Below are positions 3,812 to 64,000 of a stretch of DNA of 64,000 nt, in pieces. Positions within the stretch are counted from its first letter, which is position 1. Each line of letters begins with the position of its first letter. Under the pieces are notes generated by a model. That model had not been told where the DNA came from, did no database searches, and worked only from the letters and a program-made list of their open reading frames with translations. Origin of the DNA: Alphaproteobacteria bacterium (GTDB lineage: Bacteria > Pseudomonadota > Alphaproteobacteria > Rs-D84); the NCBI GenBank assembly GCA_017409215.1, contig JAFQTD010000029.1, positions 64,106 to 128,105 on the forward strand. Reading direction: 5' to 3'. The translations under genes and the position numbers were made by a program.

Positions 3812-5140
3812 TTAATCCTTTGATAGTGCCATTTGAATTAGTTGCTTTGATTCGACTAAAAATTCCATGGGCAGACGTGATAATACGGGGGTTGCAGCTG
3901 CACCGATGATTAACGCAATCGCAGAATCTGTTTCGATGCCCGCCATATTAAGATAGGTTAGGGTGGTGGAATCAATGGCGCCTGTTGTCGCTTCGTGTGA
4001 AATTTGGTTGTTGTCGCCACTGTGTATGACACGTGGCAAGGTATTGGCGGTTGCTGTGTCGCCAATTAGCCTGCTGTCGCACTTTGATGCGCATATGCAG
4101 TTGTTGCCAGAAAATGATACAAGGCTGCGAAATGTTTGGGTCGAATTGTCTGTTGCAACACCATATGATACGATGTTTGAAGTGCTGTTGTCGCCAATAT
4201 GAATCATTTTGGTCCCAGTGTCTGCCATTTGACCGTCGCGTGTTATAGACAGTGAATAAAAATCACTGTAAGAGTTTTTGCCGGACAGTATTGTTGATGG
4301 GTATTTCCATGTTAGTGCAGACCCAATTTCCATTTGTGTCCACAGTAATTTTGCATTGTCGGCGCAACGTCCACGTTTAGTGACAAAGTTTAATATGCCG
4401 CCTGTGTTCTTGGTGCCGTCATATTTTCCTGAATACCAGTTTTGAACGGTGGCATATTTTACGGTTGCGTTTTGGTTGACGATAATTTCAACAACACCGC
4501 TGTGCAGTTGGTGGTTGGGACGGCGCGGGGCGCTGCAGCCTTCCATATATGTTAATTCAGAACCTGTGTCTGCAATGATAAGTGTTCGTTCAAATTGACC
4601 AATCTTGGCGGTTTCAATTCTGAAATAACTGGCCAGGTCAATTGGGCATTTTGTATCAGGTGGAATATATACAAATGTGCCATCTGAAAAGACGGCGGCA
4701 TTTAGTGCAGCATAGTAGTTGTCTGTGCTGGGGACAACGGTTCCAAGATGAGATTTTACAAGGTCAGGATATTTTTGTACTGCGTCAGAAAATGGCAGGA
4801 ATATTATTCCAAGTTTTTCAAGTTCTGATTGGTATGAAGTGTGGACAGAACGGCTGTCGATTACTGTGTCGGTCGCCATACCCAGCAGTGCTTGTTTTTC
4901 ACTGGCGGGCAGACCCATTTTATCATAAATTTTTTCCAAATCTGAATTATCAACAGGCGCAGGTGCGTTATAATAATTTAACTTGTTATAGTCTATGTCT
5001 GGAATATCTAGTTCTGCCCAAGTGGGTGGCGTCATTTCTTGCCATGCTTTGAATGCGGACAGGCGCCAATCAAGTAGCCATTTGGGTTCGTGGCGTATGC
5101 TGGAAATTTTTTTGATAAGATTTTCAGATAATTTTGGCAT
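3812..5140 (-). CDS. sufB: Fe-S cluster assembly scaffold SufB
   Basis: SufB-type N-terminus (HEPKWLLDWRLSAFKAW...LNYYNAP) and SufBD beta-helix C-terminal blocks (ADTGTKMIHIG, SHEATTGAID). Confidence 0.85.
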   Translation of the reverse strand: MPKLSENLIKKISSIRHEPKWLLDWRLSAFKAWQEMTPPTWAELDIPDIDYNKLNYYNAPAPVDNSDLEKIYDKMGLPASEKQALLGMATDTVIDSRSVHTSYQSELEKLGIIFLPFSDAVQKYPDLVKSHLGTVVPSTDNYYAALNAAVFSDGTFVYIPPDTKCPIDLASYFRIETAKIGQFERTLIIADTGSELTYMEGCSAPRRPNHQLHSGVVEIIVNQNATVKYATVQNWYSGKYDGTKNTGGILNFVTKRGRCADNAKLLWTQMEIGSALTWKYPSTILSGKNSYSDFYSLSITRDGQMADTGTKMIHIGDNSTSNIVSYGVATDNSTQTFRSLVSFSGNNCICASKCDSRLIGDTATANTLPRVIHSGDNNQISHEATTGAIDSTTLTYLNMAGIETDSAIALIIGAAATPVLSRLPMEFLVESKQLIQMALSKD

Positions 5141-7090: not shown

Positions 7091-8719
7091 ATGAAAAGTA
7101 TAATGAAGAAAATAACGGTTTGTGTTTTGTGTGTGCTTGCAGTTGCAGGATGTGCGAAACGCGAATCTGCCAAGGTTGCGGCAACCGTTGATCAAGATTT
7201 CGTTAATGCGTATGATGCGTTTGAAATGGCAAAAAATCCACGTGCAAAGGTGGCAAGTGGTGATACTGTTTCTGTTTCCGAAGGTGTTTGGTTGGGAAAT
7301 AAATCTGTGGTCTTGGAACACAGAAATAATTTGCCGGCAAAGTTTGAAACAGATACAGGGGTGACGATTTTGTTGAACGAGCCTGTTTCGTTGCAAGTTT
7401 TGGCTAATGATATTTATTCGATTACTGGTATTCCTGTGAAAATTGATGGACAGGTATCGCAGGATAAGTTAAGGAATCAGGTTAATGTTGCTTATACTGG
7501 AAAATTGTCGGGATTGTTGTCTCAGGTCGCAACTGATTTAGATTTATTGTGGTATTATGACAAGGATTCTATTGTGTTTTATGAAACAGAAACACGTACG
7601 TTTACATTGTATGCCTTGGGGACAGAGGTTGCGTATCAGACGTCTGTGTCTACGGATAATTCTAATGAGGTTTCTTTGCAGTCTACATTAAAAGAATGGG
7701 ATGAGGTTGAAAATGCAATTTCATCAATTTTGGGGAAAAGTAGTAATGCGGACTTTACAGTATCACGCAGTCTGGGAACAATTACAGTGACGGCTTCGCC
7801 GTCTGTATTGGCGCGTGTGGGGGAATATATTGAACGTCAGAATAAACGTTTGAGTCAGTTGGTGACGATTGATGTTAAGGTTTTACAGGTGACGTTATCT
7901 AATGATACTGCGTTTGGTTTGAATTTGGCGGCCGCCATTAATTCTACGTCGGGATTGAATATTGTTGCGAATCCAAAAAATAATCTGGCATCAACAGAGG
8001 CTAGTTCTATGAATATTGCTGTGTTGTCTAATGCTGTTTCTGCATTGACGGGCGCGACACATATGGAAAATGGTTCTTTGGTTGAAGGGGCATATACGCA
8101 GGATCAGATTATGAATGGTTCATTGTCTGGTGTCGCAGGCAGTGCCGCATTGATTGAGGCTTTGGCAAAGCAGGGTAAGGTTTCGTTGGTGACGAATGTA
8201 GGTGTGACCACGCGTTCAAATCGTGTTGCGCCGGTAAGTAATACGCGTACAACAGGGTATATAAAACGATTCGAATCGCGTAATTTCACAACTGTTGAAT
8301 CAAGTACCGTTGATCAGGATGATTTAGAGACAGGGTTTACAATGCAGTTGTTGCCGAATGTCCTAGAGAATGGTAAGATTTTGTTGTTGTTCCGTATGTC
8401 TGTTCGTGAATTATTGCGTATGTCAACGCAGACAATTGGTGAGGTCACTTTGCAGTTGCCAGAGGTTGAAGAACGCAGTTTTATGCAGGAAATTATTATG
8501 GAATCGGGACAAATGTTGGTCTTGTCAGGCTTTGAAAAACAGACAAATGAAGATACCCGTTATGGTTTGGGGAATCCTGATTTTATGGCGCTTTCTGGTT
8601 CCCGCGAATCGTCGTCCACGCGTGAGGTTTTGGTTGTTATCTTGACACCACAGGTATTGGTCAGTCCAATGGATGTAGAGAGGGGTATTCAACAAAACTG
8701 GGGTGCGCCGTTAAATTAG
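7091..8719 (+). CDS. type IVb pilus secretin lipoprotein (R64 PilN family-like)
   Basis: Lipobox LAVAGC after the signal peptide. Secretin C-terminal domain (VTIDVKVLQVTLSNDTAFGLNL ... REVLVVILTPQVL). AGGAG lies 8 nt upstream of the ATG. Confidence 0.75.
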   Translation: MKSIMKKITVCVLCVLAVAGCAKRESAKVAATVDQDFVNAYDAFEMAKNPRAKVASGDTVSVSEGVWLGNKSVVLEHRNNLPAKFETDTGVTILLNEPVSLQVLANDIYSITGIPVKIDGQVSQDKLRNQVNVAYTGKLSGLLSQVATDLDLLWYYDKDSIVFYETETRTFTLYALGTEVAYQTSVSTDNSNEVSLQSTLKEWDEVENAISSILGKSSNADFTVSRSLGTITVTASPSVLARVGEYIERQNKRLSQLVTIDVKVLQVTLSNDTAFGLNLAAAINSTSGLNIVANPKNNLASTEASSMNIAVLSNAVSALTGATHMENGSLVEGAYTQDQIMNGSLSGVAGSAALIEALAKQGKVSLVTNVGVTTRSNRVAPVSNTRTTGYIKRFESRNFTTVESSTVDQDDLETGFTMQLLPNVLENGKILLLFRMSVRELLRMSTQTIGEVTLQLPEVEERSFMQEIIMESGQMLVLSGFEKQTNEDTRYGLGNPDFMALSGSRESSSTREVLVVILTPQVLVSPMDVERGIQQNWGAPLN

Positions 8720-8900
8720 ATATGATGGTATATCTAAAGTGAATGGGGGTGGCATATGTAGCATTTGTACACTACGTCACATCATTTGTTTTGTCTGAAC
8801 CATTCACTTTAATTTTTTAAATTAACTATAATAATTTATCTAAAATTCATCCTGATAACTTATTTGTATTCTGTATATTGTGTTATCGGGGTGAATTTAA
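8711..8900 (+). repeat. two degenerate copies of the DR-hairpin-DR element
   Basis: Copy 1 spans about 8711-8818 and copy 2 about 8819-8900. Both align to the elements after dnaA, the coiled-coil gene and dnaN (TATCTAAA, stem, TTATGTA..TGTA.A loop, stem). Confidence 0.7.
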
Positions 8901-9133
8901 TATAAAGTTAAAATTATTGTTTTTTTGTTCTTGTATGATGTTATTCGCATTATCATCAAGATTTTTGATGATGACGTGTGAGAATCCGTTCCATAGCGTT
9001 TGTATTAAATGTGGTTTTAATTTTATAAAGGAGAGTGCTGATATGTTGTTGCTTTTATTTCCCTTGCCATTAAAGAGGAATTAGGTAGGGTGACTGAATG
9101 GAGGTTTAGGGACTTGGAAGAAATAGTAAATAT

Positions 9134-12464: not shown

Positions 12465-13751
12465 ATGCAGGCACAAACCGCGGCAAAAACACAAATGACA
12501 AACTTGGAAATTATCAAGGGGGCCATTGCCGCAAAAATGGATTCTGCATCTTTTACTTCTTGGATTGCGCCTTTGGCCATGGATGTTGTTGATGGAAATT
12601 TGGTCTTGTGTGCACAAAATCAATTCTCGGCTGATTTTATTACAAGTGTTCATAAAACAATCTTGGCTGATGTTGCTGCAGAATTTGGACTGGGGTTGGA
12701 TATCGTTGTTCGCAACAGTGCAACACGTGCAATTGCACCAATTGCAAATGATAATCAGGCACAGGTATATGCACCTGTTGTAAAGACTGTTGCGGATTCT
12801 GTTAATTTTGATAGTTTTATTACATCTGATGAAAATGCATTTGTTGTATGTGCATGCAAAAAGTTGGCAACAGGTACTGCGCCATTCACACAATTGTTTA
12901 TTTATGGTGTGGCGGGTTGTGGAAAATCTTTGTTGGCAGATTGTATCGCAGGTGCATGTGCGGGTCGTGTTGTTAAAATGTCTGGTGCACAATTTGTTTC
13001 TGAATTTACACGTTCTTTGAAAGAACATAATGTTTTTGCGTTTAAAGATTTCTGCCGTAATTGCAATTTGTTTATCTTGGATGATGTTCAGGCGTTGGCT
13101 GGTAAAAAGGCATCAACCGAAGAATTTTTGCAATTGATTGTTGATTTGCGTAATGCGGGTAAAAATGTTGTCTTGACAGCAGATTCTGCCCCCAGTAATT
13201 TGACAGGTTTTGATCGTCATTCTCAGGGTGTTTTGGCATCTGGTTTGGTTGCAGATGTTGCTGCACCAAACGCACATGTCAAGACTGTTATCTTGCAACG
13301 TGCAGGTGTCAAGGCAGATGTTGCATCTGCTCTGGCCGCACGCGTTGCAAATGATGGACACTTGGTTGCAGGTGTTGCAACAAAAATCAAGACATATGTT
13401 GACTTGATGGGTGCAGATGTTGATATTGATGTTGCAAAACGTCTGTTGGCAGATACATTAACAGCCGTTAAAACACCAAACGCGATGGTTCGTGATATGT
13501 GTGAAAAGTTGGGGGTTTCATACGATGCAGTTTGTGGAAATGGTCGTAGTCGCAACCTGGTTTTTGCGCGTCAAATAATGATGGTTGTATTAAAGAATGC
13601 GACATCTTTATCCTTGGTGGAAATCGGAAATTTTGTTGGTGGTCGCGATCACGCAACAGTGTTGTATGCGGTAAAACAGATTGAAAAACAAAAGGCAACA
13701 GACTTGGTGTTGGCAGCGCAGATAGAACAATTTATCGCGGACTGCAAATAA
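12465..13751 (+). CDS. dnaA: chromosomal replication initiator DnaA
   Basis: Walker A GVAGCGKS, LFILDDVQALAGK, and the C-terminal DNA-binding signature IGNFVGGRDHATVLYAVKQIEK. Confidence 0.9.
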   Translation: MQAQTAAKTQMTNLEIIKGAIAAKMDSASFTSWIAPLAMDVVDGNLVLCAQNQFSADFITSVHKTILADVAAEFGLGLDIVVRNSATRAIAPIANDNQAQVYAPVVKTVADSVNFDSFITSDENAFVVCACKKLATGTAPFTQLFIYGVAGCGKSLLADCIAGACAGRVVKMSGAQFVSEFTRSLKEHNVFAFKDFCRNCNLFILDDVQALAGKKASTEEFLQLIVDLRNAGKNVVLTADSAPSNLTGFDRHSQGVLASGLVADVAAPNAHVKTVILQRAGVKADVASALAARVANDGHLVAGVATKIKTYVDLMGADVDIDVAKRLLADTLTAVKTPNAMVRDMCEKLGVSYDAVCGNGRSRNLVFARQIMMVVLKNATSLSLVEIGNFVGGRDHATVLYAVKQIEKQKATDLVLAAQIEQFIADCK

Positions 13752-13856
13752 AAATTAAATATAATAATTCATCTAAACGCGGTGCCGGAAACTTATGTAT
13801 CTTTTGTACACGTCGTTTCCGGCACTGCGTTTATCTAAACCATTCTATTTAATTTT
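13752..13856 (+). repeat. DR-hairpin-DR element (best-preserved copy)
   Basis: It starts right after the dnaA stop codon. The layout is AAATTAAATATAAT..ATCTAAA, a stem at 13778-13792, a loop TTATGTATCTTTTGTACAC(GTC), a stem at 13815-13829, then TTTATCTAAACCATTCTATTTAATTTT. Confidence 0.8.
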
Positions 13857-14110
13857 AAGCTCTGCAAGGGTGGAAAATATGTCCCTGCGGGGCAATGGAT
13901 ACCCGCCTGCGCGGGTATGACGATGAACGAGGTCGGGGCCCGATACGCAGGAATGACGAATAGAGAGTAGCGGGGCGTGATGCGGGAATGACGGGCGTAT
14001 TGGTGTGGGTGTAATAAGTCCCTGCGGGGCAATGGATTCCTGCCTGCGCAGGAATGACGAGTGTGGGGCGGGGGCCGATACGCGGGAATGACGAAGAGAG
14101 TGGACGTGGG
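13857..14110 (+). repeat. REP-like composite array (GTCCCTGCGGGGCAATGGATxCCxGCCTGCGCxGGxATGACGA units plus GGGGCCxGATACGxGGAATGACGA units)
   Basis: Long units at 13881-13923 and 14018-14060. Short units at about 13936-13960 and 14072-14098. The same modules occur at 43.6 kb and 63.5 kb. Confidence 0.8.
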
Positions 14111-40613: not shown

Positions 40614-43355
40614 ATGAGAAAGTATTTTTTTATGATTTTTGCGACTTTTTTTGCGGGAAATCTGTGGGCGGCATGTCAGCCAACAACTAATGTTTTAGAA
40701 AATAGGTCTGAGCCAGATCATGACGAATATTTATATGAGAATACTAGGGAGCGTGAAATAAGACAAAATAAAGGACAAGGCGAGGCTTACTTGTGTGGTT
40801 ATGAAGATAAGGGCGGATGCCCACGTGGTGAAAGATTTGCTTTCCGAAATGCAGCAGTTGGTGCTGATAATTATACGGGATTGACGGTATATACTTGTGC
40901 TGGGGGGGGCGACAATTATTTTTGGGAAGCTGTAACAGTGGAAGAAAAATGTTATTCGGATGAACGTGTTTATAGTGAATCTGTTGGTGGGATGACCTTG
41001 TATAAGCTAGGTAATAATAAATATTGTGAACACGTTGTATATCTTAAAGATCTGATAAGAGCAATTGCAGATGATGCGATAGCTAACAATAATGATACTT
41101 TGTTAGAACAGTTTTGGGAAGAGTTGAATACAAAAATTGAAAATATCTATAGAAGTGATGCTTTTATGAATGCAGTTGTGAATGTTGTGAATGGTATGGA
41201 TAAGCCTTTATCAGAAGATAATTTGAATACAATTATTGGATTGATTACGCAAGGAATTCAGAATTCGGGCTTTGCGGATAAAATTGGTGATATCCAATCG
41301 GATATAGAAGGTATAAAAGACCGTATATCTAATCTAGAAGTTAATGTGACGCAGTTAAAGACTGATTTGAAAAACACCACTGATAGTCTTTTTAAGCTTG
41401 CTGTTAAGTATGACGTAACAGTCACAAAAATACAGGCGGAATTTGATGAGTTTTGGGAACAATTGAATGCCAGGATGACTAAAGAAGAGATAGAGGAATT
41501 TGTTAATGAAAAAATCGCTACATTGGAAGAAATGCTTATGTATCTGATACAAGACCAGGGGCGGGATCTTGATAATTTCAAGAATGAAGTTGCAACGATA
41601 CATGAAGTCTTGCAGATTAAGTTGAATGAACATGGTATTAAAATTGCAGAATTGGATAGCAGAATTGCTGCTTTAGAGGGACGTATGGAAGTGGCCGAAG
41701 ATAATATAGCAAGATTAAGAGAAGGGTTGAATCAGGCTGTGACAAAAATTCATGAGCTTGCTGCAGAGTATGGAGTATCTCTTATAAAAACAGAAGCGGA
41801 ATTTAAAAAGGTTTGGGCTGAGTTAGGTAATAAAATGAACAAGGATGATGTAGAGGAATTGGTAAAAACATACATTATAAATTCAGAGCAGATAATTATG
41901 CAGGAAATTCAAAATACAAATTTTGATCTTGATGAATTTAAGAAGAAAGTTGCAGAGATAGAGACAGATTTGCGGGATGAGTTGGAAAAGCATGGTATTA
42001 AAATTGCAGAATTGGATAGCAGGATAGATGCGTTAGAGAATCGTGTTGGTGCAATAGAAGGTGATGTGACGGATTTAAAAACTGGTTTGAAAAACACCGC
42101 TGATAGTCTTTTTGCGCTTGCTGTTAAGTATGACGCAAAAGTCACAGAAATACAGACGGAATTTGAAAAGGTTTGGGCTGAGTTAGGTAATAAAATGAAC
42201 AAGGATGATGTAGAGAAGTTGGTAAAAACATACATTATAGATTTAGAGCAGAAAATTATGCAGGAAATTCAAAATACAAATGTTGATCTTGATGAATTTA
42301 AGAAGAAAGTTGCAGATATAGAGAAAAAATTGCAGGATAAGTTGGAAGAACATGGTATTAAAATTACTGAATTGGATAAAAGGATAACAGAGTTAGAGAC
42401 TCGTGTTGGTGCAATAGAAGTTAATGTGACGGAGTTAAAAACTGATTTGAAAAACACCACTAATAGTCTTCTTGTGCTTGCTACTAAATATGACGTAAAA
42501 GTCGCAGAAATAGAGGCGGAATTTGAAAATGTTTGGGAACAATTGAAAGCCACGATGACTAAAGAAGAGATAGAGGAATTTGTTAATGAACAAATCGCTG
42601 CATTGGAAGAAAAACTTATGGAGCAGATAAATAAACAGGGGAAGGATCTTGAAAATTTCAAGAATGAAGTGAAAAAAATAGAGAACGATTTGAAAGATCG
42701 ATTAAATAAAATTGATATTAGGTTGGATGGTCTGGAAAGTCGTATTAATGATTTAGAGGTTGCGAAGGAAGATATTATCTCTAAATTAGAAAAATTAGCG
42801 GAGACCGATGAAGAATTGAAGAAGGCGATTGAGGCTTTAAAGGCAGATTTAGCGAATAAGGTCACAATGGAAGAGGTTATTGTGGAAATCACAAATAGAC
42901 TTGAAAATGCGGAATTGAACAATAATCAGAGAAAACAAGTGATTGAGTTGATTGAAACATATACTGTCCAATTATCAGATGGGCAACGGCAACAGGTTGA
43001 AATAATGATACAACAAAAAATTGGTAAAAAGTTTGATGAATTAGATGCGACAAATAAATTGCAGGATGAACAAAGGAAGTCACAAGACAGGGTTAATTCT
43101 GCGATGTCTGTTTTGAATGCGTTCGCAGCGGGTCAGGATGCGTCTGTCTGGCGTAATGCAGACGGTAAGTTTAACACAGCGCGTTTGGCATCTGATGCGA
43201 CTGCTGGTGTCATTCTGGGTACCGCCGGTGGTTTGATTTCAAACAAGGTAATTAAGAAAAATCAAATCAAAAAGGGATTTGAGGGTATCGGATGTTATGT
43301 CGGTGGCCAGGTGGTGGCTGATTATGGGGATGAATTTACAGTCGGTATGATGTAA
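40614..43355 (+). CDS. 913-aa secreted coiled-coil repeat protein with an N-terminal Cys domain and a C-terminal glycine-zipper/Cys tail
   Basis: Signal peptide MRKYFFMIFATFFAGNLWA. About 170 aa of Cys-containing head, then four 120-aa heptad-rich repeats. The tail is AGVILGTAGGLISNKV...GIGCYVGGQVVADYGDEFTVGMM. Confidence 0.65.
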   Translation: MRKYFFMIFATFFAGNLWAACQPTTNVLENRSEPDHDEYLYENTREREIRQNKGQGEAYLCGYEDKGGCPRGERFAFRNAAVGADNYTGLTVYTCAGGGDNYFWEAVTVEEKCYSDERVYSESVGGMTLYKLGNNKYCEHVVYLKDLIRAIADDAIANNNDTLLEQFWEELNTKIENIYRSDAFMNAVVNVVNGMDKPLSEDNLNTIIGLITQGIQNSGFADKIGDIQSDIEGIKDRISNLEVNVTQLKTDLKNTTDSLFKLAVKYDVTVTKIQAEFDEFWEQLNARMTKEEIEEFVNEKIATLEEMLMYLIQDQGRDLDNFKNEVATIHEVLQIKLNEHGIKIAELDSRIAALEGRMEVAEDNIARLREGLNQAVTKIHELAAEYGVSLIKTEAEFKKVWAELGNKMNKDDVEELVKTYIINSEQIIMQEIQNTNFDLDEFKKKVAEIETDLRDELEKHGIKIAELDSRIDALENRVGAIEGDVTDLKTGLKNTADSLFALAVKYDAKVTEIQTEFEKVWAELGNKMNKDDVEKLVKTYIIDLEQKIMQEIQNTNVDLDEFKKKVADIEKKLQDKLEEHGIKITELDKRITELETRVGAIEVNVTELKTDLKNTTNSLLVLATKYDVKVAEIEAEFENVWEQLKATMTKEEIEEFVNEQIAALEEKLMEQINKQGKDLENFKNEVKKIENDLKDRLNKIDIRLDGLESRINDLEVAKEDIISKLEKLAETDEELKKAIEALKADLANKVTMEEVIVEITNRLENAELNNNQRKQVIELIETYTVQLSDGQRQQVEIMIQQKIGKKFDELDATNKLQDEQRKSQDRVNSAMSVLNAFAAGQDASVWRNADGKFNTARLASDATAGVILGTAGGLISNKVIKKNQIKKGFEGIGCYVGGQVVADYGDEFTVGMM
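41271..42800 (+). repeat. four 360-bp in-frame tandem repeats plus a partial fifth, inside the coiled-coil gene
   Basis: CATGGTATTAAAATT recurs at 41631, 41991 and 42351, an exact 360-nt period. Units 2 and 3 are near-identical in their second halves. Units 1 and 4 resemble each other. Confidence 0.85.
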
Positions 43356-43568
43356 AATTAAATATAATGGTCTATCTAAAGCGAATGGGGGTGGCTTATG
43401 TAGCGTTTGTACACTACGCCACCCCCATTGGTTTTATCTAAATCATTATAATTAATTTTCAAAATTAACCATAATAATTCATCTAAAACCAATCCCGCCA
43501 ACTTATGTAACTTCTGTACACTGCGTTGTCGGGATTGATTTTATCTAAATCATCATAATTAATTTTAC
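43356..43568 (+). repeat. two tandem DR-hairpin-DR elements
   Basis: Copy 1 has stem AATGGGGGTGGC/GCCACCCCCATT. Copy 2 has stem CAATCCCGCCAAC/GTTGTCGGGATTG. Both have loop TTATGTA(G/A)C(G/T)T(T/C)TGTACAC and TATCTAAA flanks. Confidence 0.8.
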
Positions 43569-43980
43569 CGCCTTGCAAGGGGGGGAAGAAGTGTTGGGTG
43601 TTTAATATGTCCCTGCGGGGCAATGGATACCCGCCTGCGCGGGAATGACGAATAGAGGGGGCAGGTGATGGTTGGGTGTGGTTGGTTTTGTTTTCTTTGT
43701 TTTAACAATTTTTTGTAAAAAAAATTGTCATTCCATGGCTTGACCATGGAACCTAGGTTATGTATTCCTTATTATCGGCACTACCTGGGTCCTGTGGTCA
43801 AGCCACAGGATGACAAAGAGTTAAAAATTTGCAATTTTTGCGGGGCGCGATGCGGGTAGGACGATGAACGAGGGCGGGGCCTGATACGGGAATGACGAAG
43901 AGGCGGGTGTGGAGGCCCGATACGGGTATGACGAGAGTGTGAGTAGGGGCCTGATACGCGGGAATGACGAAGAGAGGGGT
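43569..43980 (+). repeat. REP-like composite array
   Basis: It contains ACCGCCTTGCAAGGGGG, a GTCCCTGCGGGG...GGGAATGACGA unit (43608-43650), an inverted pair of GTCATxCxxxGGCTTGACCxxxGxA hairpins (43727-43814), an AAAAATTTGCAATTTTTG palindrome, and three GGGGCCxGATACGGGxATGACGA units (43877-43975). Confidence 0.8.
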
Positions 43981-62164: not shown

Positions 62165-63283
62165 ATGGAATTTTCAGTGTTTCGTCAGGTCTTGATTCGT
62201 GCGCTGGGACATATGCAGTCGATTGTTGAAAAGCGTGCGACGTTGCCGATATTGATGAATGTTAAATTAGAAGTTGCAGATGATTTGGTTTTGTCTGCGA
62301 CAAATGTTGACTTGGAATTAGTTGAACATGTCGTGGCTGATATTACTTTGGCGGGTAAGACAACAGTTCCTGTGCAAATGTTGTATGATATCGTCAGAAA
62401 ATTGCCAGATGATGCAGAAATTACTTTTAAGCAATCGGGTGACCAATTGGTTGTATCAAGTGGTCGTGCAGTATTTCGTTTGCCAACATTGCCGGCAGAA
62501 AATTTCCCAGCAATGGCGGGCAGTAATTTGACGACCAAGTTCCAGATGACAACTGGTGATTTGGCGCACTTGATTAATCAGACGAAGTTCGCAATTCCGA
62601 CCGATGATGTGCGTTATCATTTAGGGGGGATTTACTTCCATATTTCTGACGAAAACGATGAAAAGAAATTAACAGCGGTTGCAACTGATGCACAACGTAT
62701 GGCATTGTGTGCGATGCCAGCACCAGCAGGCAGTCTGGAAATGCCATCTGTAATCTTGCCAAGACGTGTGATTGGCGAATTATCTAAATTACTAGAAGAC
62801 GCAAATGTAGATGATGTTTTGGTTGAATTGTCTGATACCAAGGCGCGTTTTACAGTGGGCAGTGCGATTCTGACCAGCAAGTTGGTTGATGCGCAGTATC
62901 CTAATTATCGTGTGGTTATTCCAAAGGGTAATGATAAAATTGCAATTTTGGACAGAAAGCAGTTTATTAATGCGGTTGACTTGGTTTCGGTTGCAAGTGT
63001 TGATAAAACAAAGTCTGTGCAATTAACATTCAGTATGAATAAGCTGGTTATAAACGCGTCCAGTCCAGATGCGGGTACCGCAACGCAGGAATTGGATATT
63101 GAATATAATGGCGACGCATCATTTACGGTTGTCTTTAACGTAAAGTTCTTGTTAGATGTTGCGGGTCAGGTCGAAGGTGAGAAATTCCAGATGGAAATGC
63201 AAGATCCATTGGCGCCAACGAAAATCAATTCAATCGACAAGGATACGGATGCGATTTATGTTTTAATGCCAATGCGCATGTAA
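62165..63283 (+). CDS. dnaN: DNA polymerase III beta sliding clamp
   Basis: 372 aa with the three-domain clamp pattern (RATLPILMNVKL, FPTLPAENFP, RYHLGGIYF, YPNYRVVIP, PMRM terminus). Confidence 0.9.
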   Translation: MEFSVFRQVLIRALGHMQSIVEKRATLPILMNVKLEVADDLVLSATNVDLELVEHVVADITLAGKTTVPVQMLYDIVRKLPDDAEITFKQSGDQLVVSSGRAVFRLPTLPAENFPAMAGSNLTTKFQMTTGDLAHLINQTKFAIPTDDVRYHLGGIYFHISDENDEKKLTAVATDAQRMALCAMPAPAGSLEMPSVILPRRVIGELSKLLEDANVDDVLVELSDTKARFTVGSAILTSKLVDAQYPNYRVVIPKGNDKIAILDRKQFINAVDLVSVASVDKTKSVQLTFSMNKLVINASSPDAGTATQELDIEYNGDASFTVVFNVKFLLDVAGQVEGEKFQMEMQDPLAPTKINSIDKDTDAIYVLMPMRM

Positions 63284-63480
63284 AAAAATTAAATATAATG
63301 GTCTATCTAAACGCGGTGCCGGAAACTCATGTATCTTTTGTACACATCGTTTCCGGCACTGCGTTTATCTAAACCATTCTATTTAATTTTTACCGCACTG
63401 CAAGGGGCGGTGTGGCTTATGTATCTTTTGTACACTGCGTTGTCGGGATTGATTTTATCTAAATCATTATAATTAATTTT
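63284..63480 (+). repeat. one intact and one chimeric DR-hairpin-DR element
   Basis: Copy 1 (63286-63390) is nearly identical to the dnaA-associated copy. Copy 2 (63391-63480) has the conserved loop, but its left arm (GGCGGTGTGGC) does not pair with its right arm (TGCGTTGTCGGGATTGA). Confidence 0.8.
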
Positions 63481-64000
63481 GCCGCAAGGCAAGGGGGGGG
63501 AATAAGTCCCTGCGGGGCAATGGATACCCGCCTGGAATCACCCACAAAAATTTATAATTTTTGCGGGGCCCGATACGGGTATGACGATGAACGAATGCGA
63601 TACGGGTATGACGATGAACGAGGAAAGGGGGGCAGGTGATGGTTGGGGTGATAGTAAGTTGTTAAAACTTTATGTTGTAATGGGCAAATAAATTATTTGA
63701 ACTGTTGTTTATTCTTAGTTTTATTAAAAACGCTCGTCATTCCCGCGCAGGCGGGAATCTACTGCCCCGCAGGGATACTGATAGTGGCGTTTTTTAATTT
63801 TTAGGAAATCCTAGATTAAAATTTTGTGTGACGCGAAAAGCCACATCGATGATAAAGAGCCAAGGATTTATAATTTTTGCGGGGTGTGAAAAATTCACAA
63901 AATAAGTCCCTGCGGGGTAATGGATTCCCGCCTGGAATCACCCACAAAAATTTGTAATTTTTGCGGGGCCCGATACGGGAATGACGAAGAACGAGGACGG
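63481..64000 (+). repeat. REP-like composite array, truncated by the window end
   Basis: About 85-nt near-identical direct repeats at 63501-63585 and 63901-63985 bracket an inverted unit CGTCATTCCCGCGCAGGCGGGAATC...CCCCGCAGGGA (63737-63780). Several GATACGGGxATGACGA units are also present. Confidence 0.8.

What the first reader, a model, noticed from the sequence alone, without database searches (positions are those of the whole stretch)
13752..13856. Gene-terminal structured element: conserved loop and flanks, with stems that are hypervariable but always complementary
An element of about 105 nt begins immediately after the stop codons of dnaA (13752), the coiled-coil gene (43356), dnaN (63284) and, in degenerate form, the pilN-like gene (8711).

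Shared parts:
- AAATTAAATATAAT(GG/AA)T(C)TATCTAAA on the left.
- A loop (C/T)TATGTA-N-C-(G/T)-T-(T/C)-TGTACAC.
- TTT(T)ATCTAAA(C/T)CAT..TA.TTAATTTT on the right.

The stem between the TATCTAAA direct repeats and the loop is different in almost every copy, yet it pairs each time:
- GTGCCGGAAAC/GTTTCCGGCAC (dnaA and dnaN copies).
- AATGGGGGTGGC/GCCACCCCCATT.
- CAATCCCGCCAAC/GTTGTCGGGATTG.
- TTCATCCTGATAAC/GTTATCGGGGTGAA.

Ordinary MITE or REP families share the stem sequence. Here, stem identity is free while the loop sequence and the pairing are conserved. That is the classical covariation signature of a selected structure (RNA, or single-stranded DNA) with a sequence-specific loop. The stem followed by TTT(T)AT could act as an intrinsic terminator, although the 19-22-nt loop is atypically large. 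All copies are in the same orientation relative to the upstream gene.
Basis: partly seen in the sequence, partly recalled or inferred. Interest (0 to 1): 0.7.

Follow-up and report, generated by a model that had tools for sequence, protein, structure and literature searches.

The report
Palindromic repeat capping leading-strand genes
A previously undescribed 105-base hairpin repeat of the uncultured gut bacterium Candidatus Enterousia sits on the stop codon of genes that point the same way as replication, where related species have an ordinary terminator; it resembles known REPIN-type selfish repeats but has unusually strict placement rules.

Summary
The window holds five full copies, one truncated copy and one half copy of a ~105-nt element, all on the + strand. 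More than 180 further copies occur in 53 Candidatus Enterousia genomes.

- **Structure.** The whole element is one long hairpin. It has AT-rich inverted arms, a conserved TC:TC mismatch, an inner stem that pairs but is free in sequence, and a conserved apical region.
- **Covariation.** It is strong: 27 of 44 pairs show changes on both sides.
- **Stem variability.** The stem is not hypervariable. It drifts at about the synonymous rate, while the arms and loop stay about 89% identical.
- **New findings.**
  - The left arm abuts or contains the stop codon of a co-oriented gene in essentially every array.
  - Orthologous genes without the element carry a canonical terminator at the same place.
  - The element occurs only after leading-strand genes, with its sense strand on the G-rich strand in 77 of 78 loci.
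  - There is no G·U excess, and the mRNA-sense hairpin is the weaker of the two.
- **Interpretation.** The pairing constraint is more likely on DNA than on RNA. The best reading is a REPIN/BIME-like palindromic repeat that occupies the terminator slot.
- **Gaps.** No Y1/RAYT transposase was found.
- **Novelty.** A new variant of a known kind.

The parts
13752..13856 (+). Full unit after dnaA (the finding). Left arm 13752-13777, left inner stem 13778-13792, apical region 13793-13814, right inner stem 13815-13829, right box plus arm 13830-13856.
   Evidence: -40.2 kcal/mol, z -9.7; 118 bits on + against 66 bits on -.
8708..8818 (+). Decayed full unit after the secretin gene. The gene's TAG stop (8717-8719) lies inside the left arm, and the right inner stem is eroded.
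   Evidence: z -2.4; 71 bits.
8819..8906 (+). Second unit in tandem. The left arm and hairpin are present, the loop is degenerate and the right arm is missing.
   Evidence: inner hairpin -23.1 kcal/mol; 38 bits, model positions 22-93.
43356..43459 (+). Full unit directly after the stop codon of the 913-aa coiled-coil gene. Stem AATGGGGGTGGC/GCCACCCCCATT.
   Evidence: z -8.7; 111 bits.
43460..43567 (+). Full unit abutting the previous one. Stem CAATCCCGCCAAC/GTTGTCGGGATTG, with one C·T mismatch.
   Evidence: z -5.4; 92 bits.
63284..63391 (+). Full unit directly after dnaN. It has the same stem as the dnaA copy and is 94% identical to it.
   Evidence: family D3; z -14.5; 123 bits.
63392..63481 (+). 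Half unit. The left arm is replaced by ACCGCACTGCAAGGGGCGGTGTGGC. The loop and right half are of the 43460 type, and the stem is not paired.
   Evidence: family D4, 92% to 43502-43585; z -1.5; only the loop is found.

Best explanation
This is a family of non-autonomous palindromic repeats of the REPIN/BIME/MITE kind, specific to Candidatus Enterousia (reduced gut Alphaproteobacteria).

**Anatomy of one unit**
- AT-rich inverted arms, AAAATTAAATATAAT.. and ..ATTCTATTTAATTTT.
- A conserved TC:TC mismatch.
- A 17-19-bp inner stem whose sequence is free but whose pairing is kept.
- A conserved apical region, C-TYA-TGTA-N7-TACA-CTRC-G.

**Shown**
- The unit sits on the stop codon of a co-oriented gene.
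- It occurs only after leading-strand genes.
- It stands where other species have an A-tract/hairpin/T-tract terminator.
- The arms and loop are under purifying selection, while the stem sequence drifts neutrally with compensation.
- Copies exchange parts within genomes, and tandem arrays and chimeras form.

**Inferred**
1. The inner stem followed by TTTTATCT makes the unit work as the intrinsic terminator or 3'-end hairpin of the upstream gene. That would explain why it is retained there.
2. The pairing constraint and the polarity act on single-stranded DNA. The sense strand is the lagging-strand template. The family would then be spread or renewed by a single-strand DNA process. Candidates are an HUH/Y1-like enzyme that reads the mismatched hairpin and loop, or template switching, with insertion next to the TAA plus A-run of leading-strand gene ends.
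3. The enzyme, if there is one, has not been found.
For: **Family and structure**
- More than 180 units were found in 53 genomes.
- 27 of 44 pairs show changes on both sides. 87% of cells are paired, against 36-44% in the slid controls, and 0 of 500 shuffles reach the observed values.
- RNAalifold finds compensatory changes in 17 of 22 pairs.

**Position**
- 92 of 110 units with a left arm have a same-strand ORF whose stop lies at or inside the arm. Sixteen of the other 18 are inner units of arrays, one follows a short ORF and one is a chance match.
- The stop is TAA in 94% of genes with the element and 79% without.

**Terminator slot**
- Orthologous dnaN and other genes without the element carry canonical terminators right after the stop.
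- Canonical terminators start a median 3-5 nt after the stop.
- Only 47 of 106 arrays have any canonical-like hairpin within the next 300 nt, against 25% in control windows.

**Selection pattern**
- Across 266 orthologous pairs, third-codon-position identity is 0.61, stem identity 0.69 and identity of the rest of the element 0.89.

**Exchange within genomes**
- The dnaA and dnaN copies are 94% identical.
- The same stem is shared more often within a genome (0.15) than at the same locus in different genomes (0.07).
- Arm variants are swapped while the stem stays identical.
- Chimeras occur. Arrays hold 1-3 units.

**DNA rather than RNA**
- G·T 34 against A·C 44.
- The antisense hairpin is more stable in 105 of 108 copies with RNA parameters and 104 of 108 with DNA parameters.

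**Polarity**
- The sense strand is the G-rich strand in 155 of 162 units.
- The replication component of the skew is positive in 77 of 78 loci.
- 36% of ORFs are on the lagging strand. None carries a sense-oriented element, and 58 carry canonical terminators.

**Precedents**
- REPINs have conserved inverted ends and a compensated spacer hairpin (PMC3116915).
- TnpA-REP needs a stem mismatch (PMC3333891).
- IS200/IS605 elements keep their active strand on the lagging-strand template (PMC5027513).
Against: - No RayT, IS200 or IS608 homologue was found in about 1.1 Mb around the elements, and none in the window (Pfam lists).
- No autonomous element with the same ends was found.
- The arms are AT-rich, with no GTAG and no internal REP hairpin.
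- No target-site duplication or clean empty/filled pair was found, except one atypical 'solo loop' insertion.
- Termination is not shown. The apical region (about 23 nt) is larger than in canonical terminators, and the simple scanner does not call it.
- The strand that folds best is the antisense strand, which is the leading-strand template. The active strand is therefore uncertain.
- The replication polarity could instead come from survivorship: the weaker hairpin being tolerated on the lagging-strand template.
- GC skew is only a proxy for replication direction in these draft genomes.
Confidence: 0.5

Rival explanations
1. A purely cis-acting RNA element in the 3' UTR, inherited vertically at each gene. 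It would act as a terminator or as a protective or protein-binding hairpin. The stem would be kept by RNA-level selection and the loop read by an RNA-binding protein. There would be no mobility.
For: - Strict co-orientation with the upstream gene and contact with its stop codon.
- Positional equivalence with canonical terminators.
- Strong covariation.
- Purifying selection on loop and arms across species.
- Presence at the same gene ends in many species.
Against: - No G·U excess on the sense strand.
- The sense-strand fold is weaker than the antisense one by about 11 kcal/mol.
- Complete absence after lagging-strand genes, which use ordinary terminators.
- Identical stems at unrelated loci in one genome, swapped arm variants, chimeras and tandem arrays.
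Confidence: 0.2
2. A polar chromosomal signal read during replication or repair and carried in a hairpin. [quoted passage not shown] Its location at gene ends would only reflect where it is tolerated.
For: - Near-total co-orientation with the G-rich strand.
- The loop and the TATCTAAA boxes are conserved at sequence level and have polarity.
- The pairing constraint looks DNA-like.
Against: - It does not explain why the left arm must touch the stop codon of a co-oriented gene, or why the element is absent between tandem lagging-strand genes.
- There are only four arrays in 64 kb, too few for general priming.
- No known motif was matched, and no such protein was identified.
Confidence: 0.1
3. 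An ordinary double-strand cut-and-paste MITE with terminal inverted repeats, mobilised by a DDE transposase encoded elsewhere. The stem pairing would be a by-product of its palindromic origin.
For: - Perfect terminal inverted repeats, AAAATTAAAT and ATTTAATTTT.
- Size of about 105 bp, tandem and dispersed copies, and sub-families.
Against: - No target-site duplication at any junction.
- No parent element with these ends.
- Dozens of compensated stem variants, and arms and loop held at 0.89 identity while neutral sites are saturated.
- Strict strand polarity, which double-strand transposition does not predict.
Confidence: 0.08
4. The replication polarity is survivorship rather than targeting. 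Units insert or convert in either orientation. Those whose more stable hairpin (the antisense strand) would lie on the lagging-strand template are then deleted. Only the observed orientation persists, and only where it also serves the upstream gene.
For: - The two strands differ systematically in hairpin stability, in 104-105 of 108 copies.
- The weaker hairpin is the one on the G-rich strand, the lagging-strand template.
- Preferential deletion of hairpins on the lagging-strand template is established knowledge (Trinh and Sinden 1991, cited from memory).
Against: - A 4 kcal/mol difference in DNA terms seems small for an all-or-none outcome.
- No decaying copies in the opposite orientation were seen.
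- An independent reason is still needed for the link to the stop codon.
Confidence: 0.12

Closest known systems
REPINs / REP-BIME repeats mobilised by RAYT (TnpA-REP) Y1 transposases
   Same: - About 100-nt extragenic palindromic doublets.
- Two conserved inverted ends and a less conserved central part whose hairpin is kept by compensatory changes.
- Tandem clusters and high copy number.
- Long-term vertical persistence.
- A stem mismatch matters for enzyme recognition (PMC3116915, PMC3333891).
   Different: - The arms are AT-rich, without GTAG and without their own REP hairpin.
- The apical loop is the most conserved part.
- Units touch stop codons in a fixed orientation and occur only after leading-strand genes.
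- No RAYT was found in the DNA sampled.
IS200/IS605 ends and their miniature derivatives (single-strand 'peel and paste' transposition)
   Same: - Imperfect hairpins read on one strand.
- No target duplication.
- The left end abuts a short target motif.
- Strong orientation bias, with the active strand on the lagging-strand template (PMC5027513).
   Different: - These have two separate subterminal hairpins on the same strand, not one hairpin spanning the whole element.
- No TnpA was found.
- A target motif is not established here.
Intrinsic (Rho-independent) terminators of the same genomes
   Same: - Same place, 0-10 nt after the stop.
- A-run, GC-rich stem, then T-run.
- Present alternately with the element at orthologous gene ends.
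   Different: - The element adds 25-nt AT-rich arms and a 23-nt conserved apical region.
- It is repeated, with sequence conservation across loci.
- It has strand polarity, whereas the canonical terminators occur after genes of both strands.
Correia, ERIC and RPE-type palindromic MITEs (Neisseria, enterobacteria, Rickettsia; from my own knowledge)
   Same: - 100-150-bp palindromic repeats in or next to genes.
- Co-transcribed, able to form long hairpins, and sometimes acting as terminators or RNase targets.
- RPEs occur in reduced Alphaproteobacteria.
   Different: - Correia elements duplicate a TA target.
- RPEs insert in frame inside genes.
- None is reported with strict stop-codon contact, a conserved loop and complete replication polarity.
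Integron attC sites
   Same: - They follow the stop codon of the upstream gene in a fixed orientation.
- They are recognised as a folded single strand.
- Structure and unpaired bases are conserved while the stem sequence is free.
- Their orientation relative to replication matters (PMC5371416).
   Different: - The boxes here are direct repeats, not the inverted RYYYAAC/GTTRRRY core sites.
- The upstream genes are dispersed housekeeping genes, not a cassette array.
- No integrase was found.

Membership tests
REPIN / REP-BIME (RAYT-associated) | Two conserved inverted end sequences separated by a less conserved spacer that still forms a hairpin through compensatory changes | tested here: met
   Alignment A1 with the pair counts, and the orthologue comparison. 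The definition is taken from PMC3116915.
REPIN / REP-BIME (RAYT-associated) | Each end contains a REP: a 20-40-nt imperfect palindrome with a conserved GTAG 5' of its foot | tested here: not met
   The arms are AAAATTAAATATAATAATTCATCTAAA and its partner. They are AT-rich, with no internal palindrome and no GTAG. The definition is taken from PMC3333891.
REPIN / REP-BIME (RAYT-associated) | A cognate RAYT (Y1 HUH) gene in the genome, flanked by the repeats | tested here: inconclusive
   phmmer with E. coli RayT found no hit better than E = 0.07 in about 1.1 Mb around the elements. No Y1_Tnp domain appears in the window's Pfam lists. Whole genomes could not be searched.
IS200/IS605-derived miniature element | Active strand lies on the lagging-strand template (orientation bias with replication) | tested here: met
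   The sense strand is G-rich in 155 of 162 units, and the replication component of the skew is positive in 77 of 78 loci. GC skew is only a proxy for replication direction.
IS200/IS605-derived miniature element | Separate subterminal hairpins at the left and right ends on the same strand | tested here: not met
   A single hairpin spans the whole unit.
IS200/IS605-derived miniature element | Left end inserted 3' of a fixed tetra- or pentanucleotide, without target duplication | tested here: inconclusive
   The left flank is TAA plus an A-run in most copies and no duplication is seen. However, the motif cannot be separated from the stop codon, and no clean empty/filled pair was found.
Intrinsic terminator | GC-rich hairpin followed directly by a U-run, downstream of and co-oriented with a gene | tested here: met
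   The inner stem of 17-19 bp is followed by TTTTATCT. The apical region exceeds the 3-8-nt loop of the simple scanner.
Intrinsic terminator | Transcripts end at the U-run | not testable with these tools
   No transcript data are available here.
Integron attC | Inverted core sites R''/R' (RYYYAAC ... GTTRRRY) within a cassette array next to intI and attI | tested here: not met
   The ATCTAAA boxes are direct repeats. The upstream genes are dnaA, dnaN, a secretin and others dispersed over the genome.
TIR MITE of a DDE transposon (for example Correia-like) | Terminal inverted repeats plus a target-site duplication, with a parent IS carrying the same ends | tested here: not met
   Terminal inverted repeats are present. 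No duplication is seen at any window junction, and no L...ORF...R arrangement occurs in 0.9 Mb.
Any Rfam family | Match at or above the gathering score | tested here: not met
   Only a tRNA reaches gathering score in the window. In the permissive search the element gives only sub-threshold miRNA-precursor-type hairpin hits.

The most novel reading that the evidence does not exclude
The hairpin is the substrate of a still unidentified single-strand DNA enzyme, HUH-like or other. The enzyme would recognise the conserved apical loop and the TC:TC mismatch on the lagging-strand template. It would install or renew hairpin modules specifically at the stop codon and A-run of leading-strand genes. That would be a replication-coupled, terminator-replacing mobile system in a genome of under 1 Mb. 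The 'solo loop' insertion that carries an inverted copy of its own flank (L095 against L029) would then be a snapshot of how new stems are born.
Probability: 0.2. Interest if true: 0.75.

Novelty: new variant of a known kind. Interest (0 to 1): 0.55.

Why it matters
- **Gene punctuation by a repeat.** In a whole genus of reduced gut bacteria, a repeat family rather than individual terminators marks the ends of many housekeeping genes. This is a clear case of a selfish-looking palindrome apparently serving as gene punctuation.
- **A separable signal.** The pattern splits cleanly into three parts: sequence-constrained arms and loop, a stem constrained only in structure, and complete replication polarity. 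That makes the family a good natural system for asking how single-strand DNA processes shape bacterial chromosomes, and what reads the loop.
- **Practical consequences.** These units break assemblies. Three of the five contigs recovered for this dnaA protein end inside the element, 39-41 nt past the dnaA stop. The units also contribute stop codons and up to five C-terminal codons, so annotators of these MAGs should know about them.

Tried and rejected
- **Rfam.** Searches at gathering score and at permissive thresholds found no family for the element.
- **Parent element.** A search for a left arm, an ORF and a right arm in that order found only truncated remnants and chance matches.
- **Viral contigs.** One match, which is a chance hit without a hairpin.
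- **Metagenome scan for the dnaA 3' end**, to sample strains: no hit.
- **Metagenome scan for the element.** 35 loci, mostly from one study; no Y1 homologue turned up in them.
- **Wobble test for the functional RNA strand.** No asymmetry in the inner stem. The fixed mismatches of the outer arms favour the antisense strand.
- **Concerted evolution against orthology.** Both contribute weakly, with no clean answer.
- **Stems copied from the local flank at each insertion.** Rejected as a general mechanism. The same stems recur at unrelated loci and the fixed mismatches are shared by all copies. Only L095 fits.
- **GCAAGG mini-hairpin after the right arm as part of the unit.** It is present after only 35 of 164 units.
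- **Sigma-70 promoter reading of the TATAAT in the left arm.** There is no conserved -35 element, and the window scan gives no more sites than shuffled sequence. Left open.
- **Literature.** A search for Rickettsia palindromic elements and one for strand-biased terminator repeats returned nothing usable.

Full report
**1. What is there**

The dnaA ORF ends with TAA at 13749-13751, and the element runs from 13752 to 13856.
- Left arm: AAATTAAATATAATAATTCATCTAAA, 13752-13777.
- Left inner stem: CGCGGTGCCGGAAAC, 13778-13792.
- Apical region: TTATGTATCTTTTGTACACGTC, 13793-13814.
- Right inner stem: GTTTCCGGCACTGCG, 13815-13829.
- Right box and arm: TTTATCTAAACCATTCTATTTAATTTT, 13830-13856.

I built a covariance model from 108 relatives and ran it over the whole window without filters.
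- Full copies: 8708-8818, 13747-13858, 43350-43461, 43462-43565 and 63281-63392.
- Partial copy: 8835-8906.
- Loop of a half unit: 63416-63439.
- Nothing else matched. The + strand outscores the - strand by about 50 bits in the four intact copies.

The motifs are far above chance. The full copies fold with z-scores between -5.4 and -14.5.

The unit is therefore one long hairpin of about 105 nt. The 'TATCTAAA direct repeat' is a palindrome (TA..TAAA / TTTA..TA) interrupted by a TC:TC mismatch.

**2. Whose genome, and how many copies**

The dnaA protein maps to a 194-kb scaffold of a gut metagenome.

All true matches come from Candidatus Enterousia or unnamed alphaproteobacterial gut MAGs. The two outsiders, Legionella and Roseivirga, are chance matches.

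Enterousia genomes are 0.75-1.0 Mb with about 90% coding density (PMC12306168). That paper does not mention repeats.

I collected 182 units from 53 genomes, of which 113 have both arms. I aligned 108 distinct full units as alignment A1.

One caveat applies. The retrieval pattern required the loop and the right box, so their invariance in A1 is partly forced. An anchor placed in the distal arm only, with no loop requirement, still finds the loop ATGTA-N5/6-TGTAC in virtually every true unit. This includes diverged sub-families whose boxes read ATCTATA or ATCTGTA. The window's own copies, which were found independently, agree.

**3. Covariation**

On the full hairpin of 44 pairs:
- 27 pairs show changes on both sides, in 569 cells.
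- 87% of cells are paired, against 36-44% when the partners are slid by 1-3 columns.
- None of 500 shuffles reaches the observed values.

RNAalifold independently predicts the inner hairpin, with compensatory changes in 17 of 22 pairs. The outer arms covary too: AAATTAAATA/TATTTAATTT alternates with AAATAAATTA/TAATTTATTT.

There are 77 distinct inner hairpins among the 108 units. They are connected by single base-pair steps, for example AAATCGGGCATC, AAATCGGGAATC, AAATCGGGTATC, AAATCCGGTGGC and AAAAACGATGGC.

Pairing is not absolute.
- The inner stem is 93% paired.
- Three of the 77 distinct hairpins are chimeras of two stem types.
- About a third of all units are half units whose left arm is replaced by another module. 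The one folded from the window does not pair (unit at 63392).

**4. Is the stem hypervariable?**

No. I compared 266 pairs of copies that follow the same gene in different species.

| Sites compared | Mean identity |
|---|---|
| Protein (last 75 codons) | 0.94 |
| Third codon positions | 0.61 |
| Inner stem | 0.69 |
| Rest of the element | 0.89 |

The stem sequence therefore drifts at about the neutral rate while its pairing is kept. The arms, the mismatch and the loop are held almost as tightly as non-synonymous sites.

It is not unique, however. REPINs are described in just these terms: conserved inverted ends, a less conserved spacer whose 'critical features' are length and hairpin capacity, and compensatory changes that are common (PMC3116915).

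**5. Position**

Of 110 units with a left arm and enough upstream sequence, 92 have a same-strand ORF of at least 80 codons whose stop lies at or inside the arm. Of the other 18, sixteen are the second units of tandem arrays, one (L063) sits directly after a short 78-codon ORF, and one is a chance match inside a window gene.

The stop is 0-10 nt upstream of the arm, or it is one of the arm's own TAA triplets. In the latter case the element supplies the stop and up to five C-terminal codons. TAA is the stop in 94% of genes with the element, against 79% of other ORFs.

Orthologous genes in other Enterousia species that lack the element carry an ordinary A-tract/GC-hairpin/T-tract terminator in the same place. 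For dnaN, six genomes have the element and nine have a canonical terminator right after the stop.

Canonical terminators in these genomes also begin a median 3-5 nt after the stop. Contact with the stop codon is therefore the normal terminator position in these genomes.

The inner stem is followed by TTTTATCT. Only 47 of 106 arrays have any canonical-like hairpin within the next 300 nt, with a 25% false-positive rate in coding controls. For many genes the element is thus the only terminator-like structure. Termination itself is inferred, not shown.

**6. Replication polarity (new)**

The whole window has positive GC skew, and all seven copies lie on the + strand.

Across the loci:
- The element's sense strand is the G-rich strand in 155 of 162 units. 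The only unit with clearly negative skew is the Roseivirga chance match; the other six, including the Legionella one, lie within ±0.05.
- Splitting the skew into a strand-independent part and a coding-strand part gives +0.151 and 0.080. The strand-independent part is positive in 77 of 78 loci.
- 36% of long ORFs in these loci are on the other strand. None is followed by a sense-oriented element. Fifty-eight of them carry canonical terminators, and the only elements near them are the right ends of units that belong to a convergent leading-strand gene.

Two rules therefore hold together. The left arm touches the stop of a co-oriented gene, and that gene is on the leading strand. The sense strand of the element is thus the lagging-strand template.

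**7. RNA or DNA?**

If the mRNA-sense RNA were the selected fold, G·U should greatly exceed A·C.
- Among distinct inner hairpins the counts are G·T 34 and A·C 44.
- The fixed mismatches of the family are A·C, C·A and TC:TC on the sense strand. On the antisense strand they become G·T and tandem G·A.
- The antisense hairpin is accordingly more stable in 105 of 108 copies with RNA parameters (mean 11 kcal/mol) and in 104 of 108 with DNA parameters (4.2 kcal/mol).

The sense RNA is therefore not the optimised fold. Together with the replication polarity, this favours a constraint on DNA.

Which DNA strand is the active one stays open. The exposed strand carries the mismatched hairpin, as do the substrates of TnpA-REP, which needs a stem mismatch (PMC3333891). 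IS200/IS605 elements keep their active strand on the lagging-strand template (PMC5027513). Alternatively, the polarity may be survivorship of the orientation that puts the weaker hairpin on the exposed strand.

**8. Dynamics**

- The dnaA and dnaN copies are 94% identical and have the same stem.
- The same stem is shared by 15% of pairs at different loci within a genome, by 7% of orthologous pairs and by 2% of all pairs.
- Between the window and its closest relative, the dnaA unit keeps its stem but has the other left-arm variant. A strain with an identical DnaA differs completely just beyond the right arm.
- Arrays contain one (84), two (26) or three (12) units.
- One locus (L095) has a loop with an 18-bp stem and no arms. 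Its left stem arm is sequence that is also present at the orthologous empty site in L029, so the 80-nt insertion carries an inverted copy of its own flank.
- One copy has lost the TC:TC mismatch by becoming perfectly palindromic (L117).

These observations show exchange and turnover among copies. They do not show the mechanism.

**9. What was not found**

- No Rfam family matches the element.
- No parent element was found.
- No Y1 transposase was found in the window or in about 1.1 Mb around the elements.
- The element is absent from viral contigs.
- No target duplication was seen.

**10. Verdict**

The finding is a real, statistically solid and previously undescribed repeat family.

In kind it is closest to REPIN/BIME-type palindromic repeats, whose 'conserved ends, compensated middle' pattern it shares. 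It fails their defining sequence features (GTAG, REP hairpins), and no RAYT was seen.

It differs from known families in four ways:
- a conserved apical loop;
- obligatory contact with the stop codon;
- occupation of the terminator slot;
- complete restriction to leading-strand genes.

The most likely working model has two parts. The element acts as a terminator-like hairpin that is retained because it ends the upstream transcript. It is propagated or renewed by a process acting on single-stranded DNA at the replication fork.

I rate it a new variant of a known kind, with interest 0.55.

Noticed in passing
window 13868-14103, 43596-43980, 63493-64000: The intergenic regions that begin with the hairpin element continue as a mosaic of short GC-rich repeats. 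Examples are GTCCCTGCGGGGCAATGGATACCCGCCTGCGCGGGWATGACGA and GGCCCGATACGGGTATGACGA (families D5-D12). They resemble REP or neisserial NIME-type modules, and their order differs between strains.
   Followed up: partly
window 43705-43837: A separate palindromic repeat of about 130 nt matches Rfam RF02625 (Wolbachia sRNA 46) on both strands at 39.9 and 37.1 bits. This is below the gathering score of 65.3.
   Followed up: no
L095 4380-4640 against L029 6860-7040: At an orthologous site, one genome has an 80-nt insertion. It consists of the conserved loop, an inverted copy of the 14 nt to its left, and a tail. The result is an 18-bp hairpin without the AT-rich arms. This may show how a new stem arises.
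   Followed up: partly
L117 about 4785-4865 (anchor at 4861, both strands): In this copy the right box is the exact complement of the left box (GGCATATCTATG ... CATAGATATGCC). The otherwise conserved TC:TC mismatch has become perfectly paired.
   Followed up: no
window 1-64000; dnaA 12465-13751, dnaN 62165-63283: GC skew is positive over the whole window, so there is no skew switch next to dnaA. dnaA and dnaN lie 48 kb apart rather than adjacent.
   Followed up: no
window 40614-43355: A 913-aa coiled-coil protein is built from 360-nt (120-aa) tandem repeats that are 65-86% identical (families D1 and D2; Pfam).
   Followed up: no
L002, L004, L005 (contig ends 39-41 nt past the dnaA stop): Three of the five contigs recovered for this dnaA protein end inside the element. 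Assemblies appear to break at these repeats.
   Followed up: no
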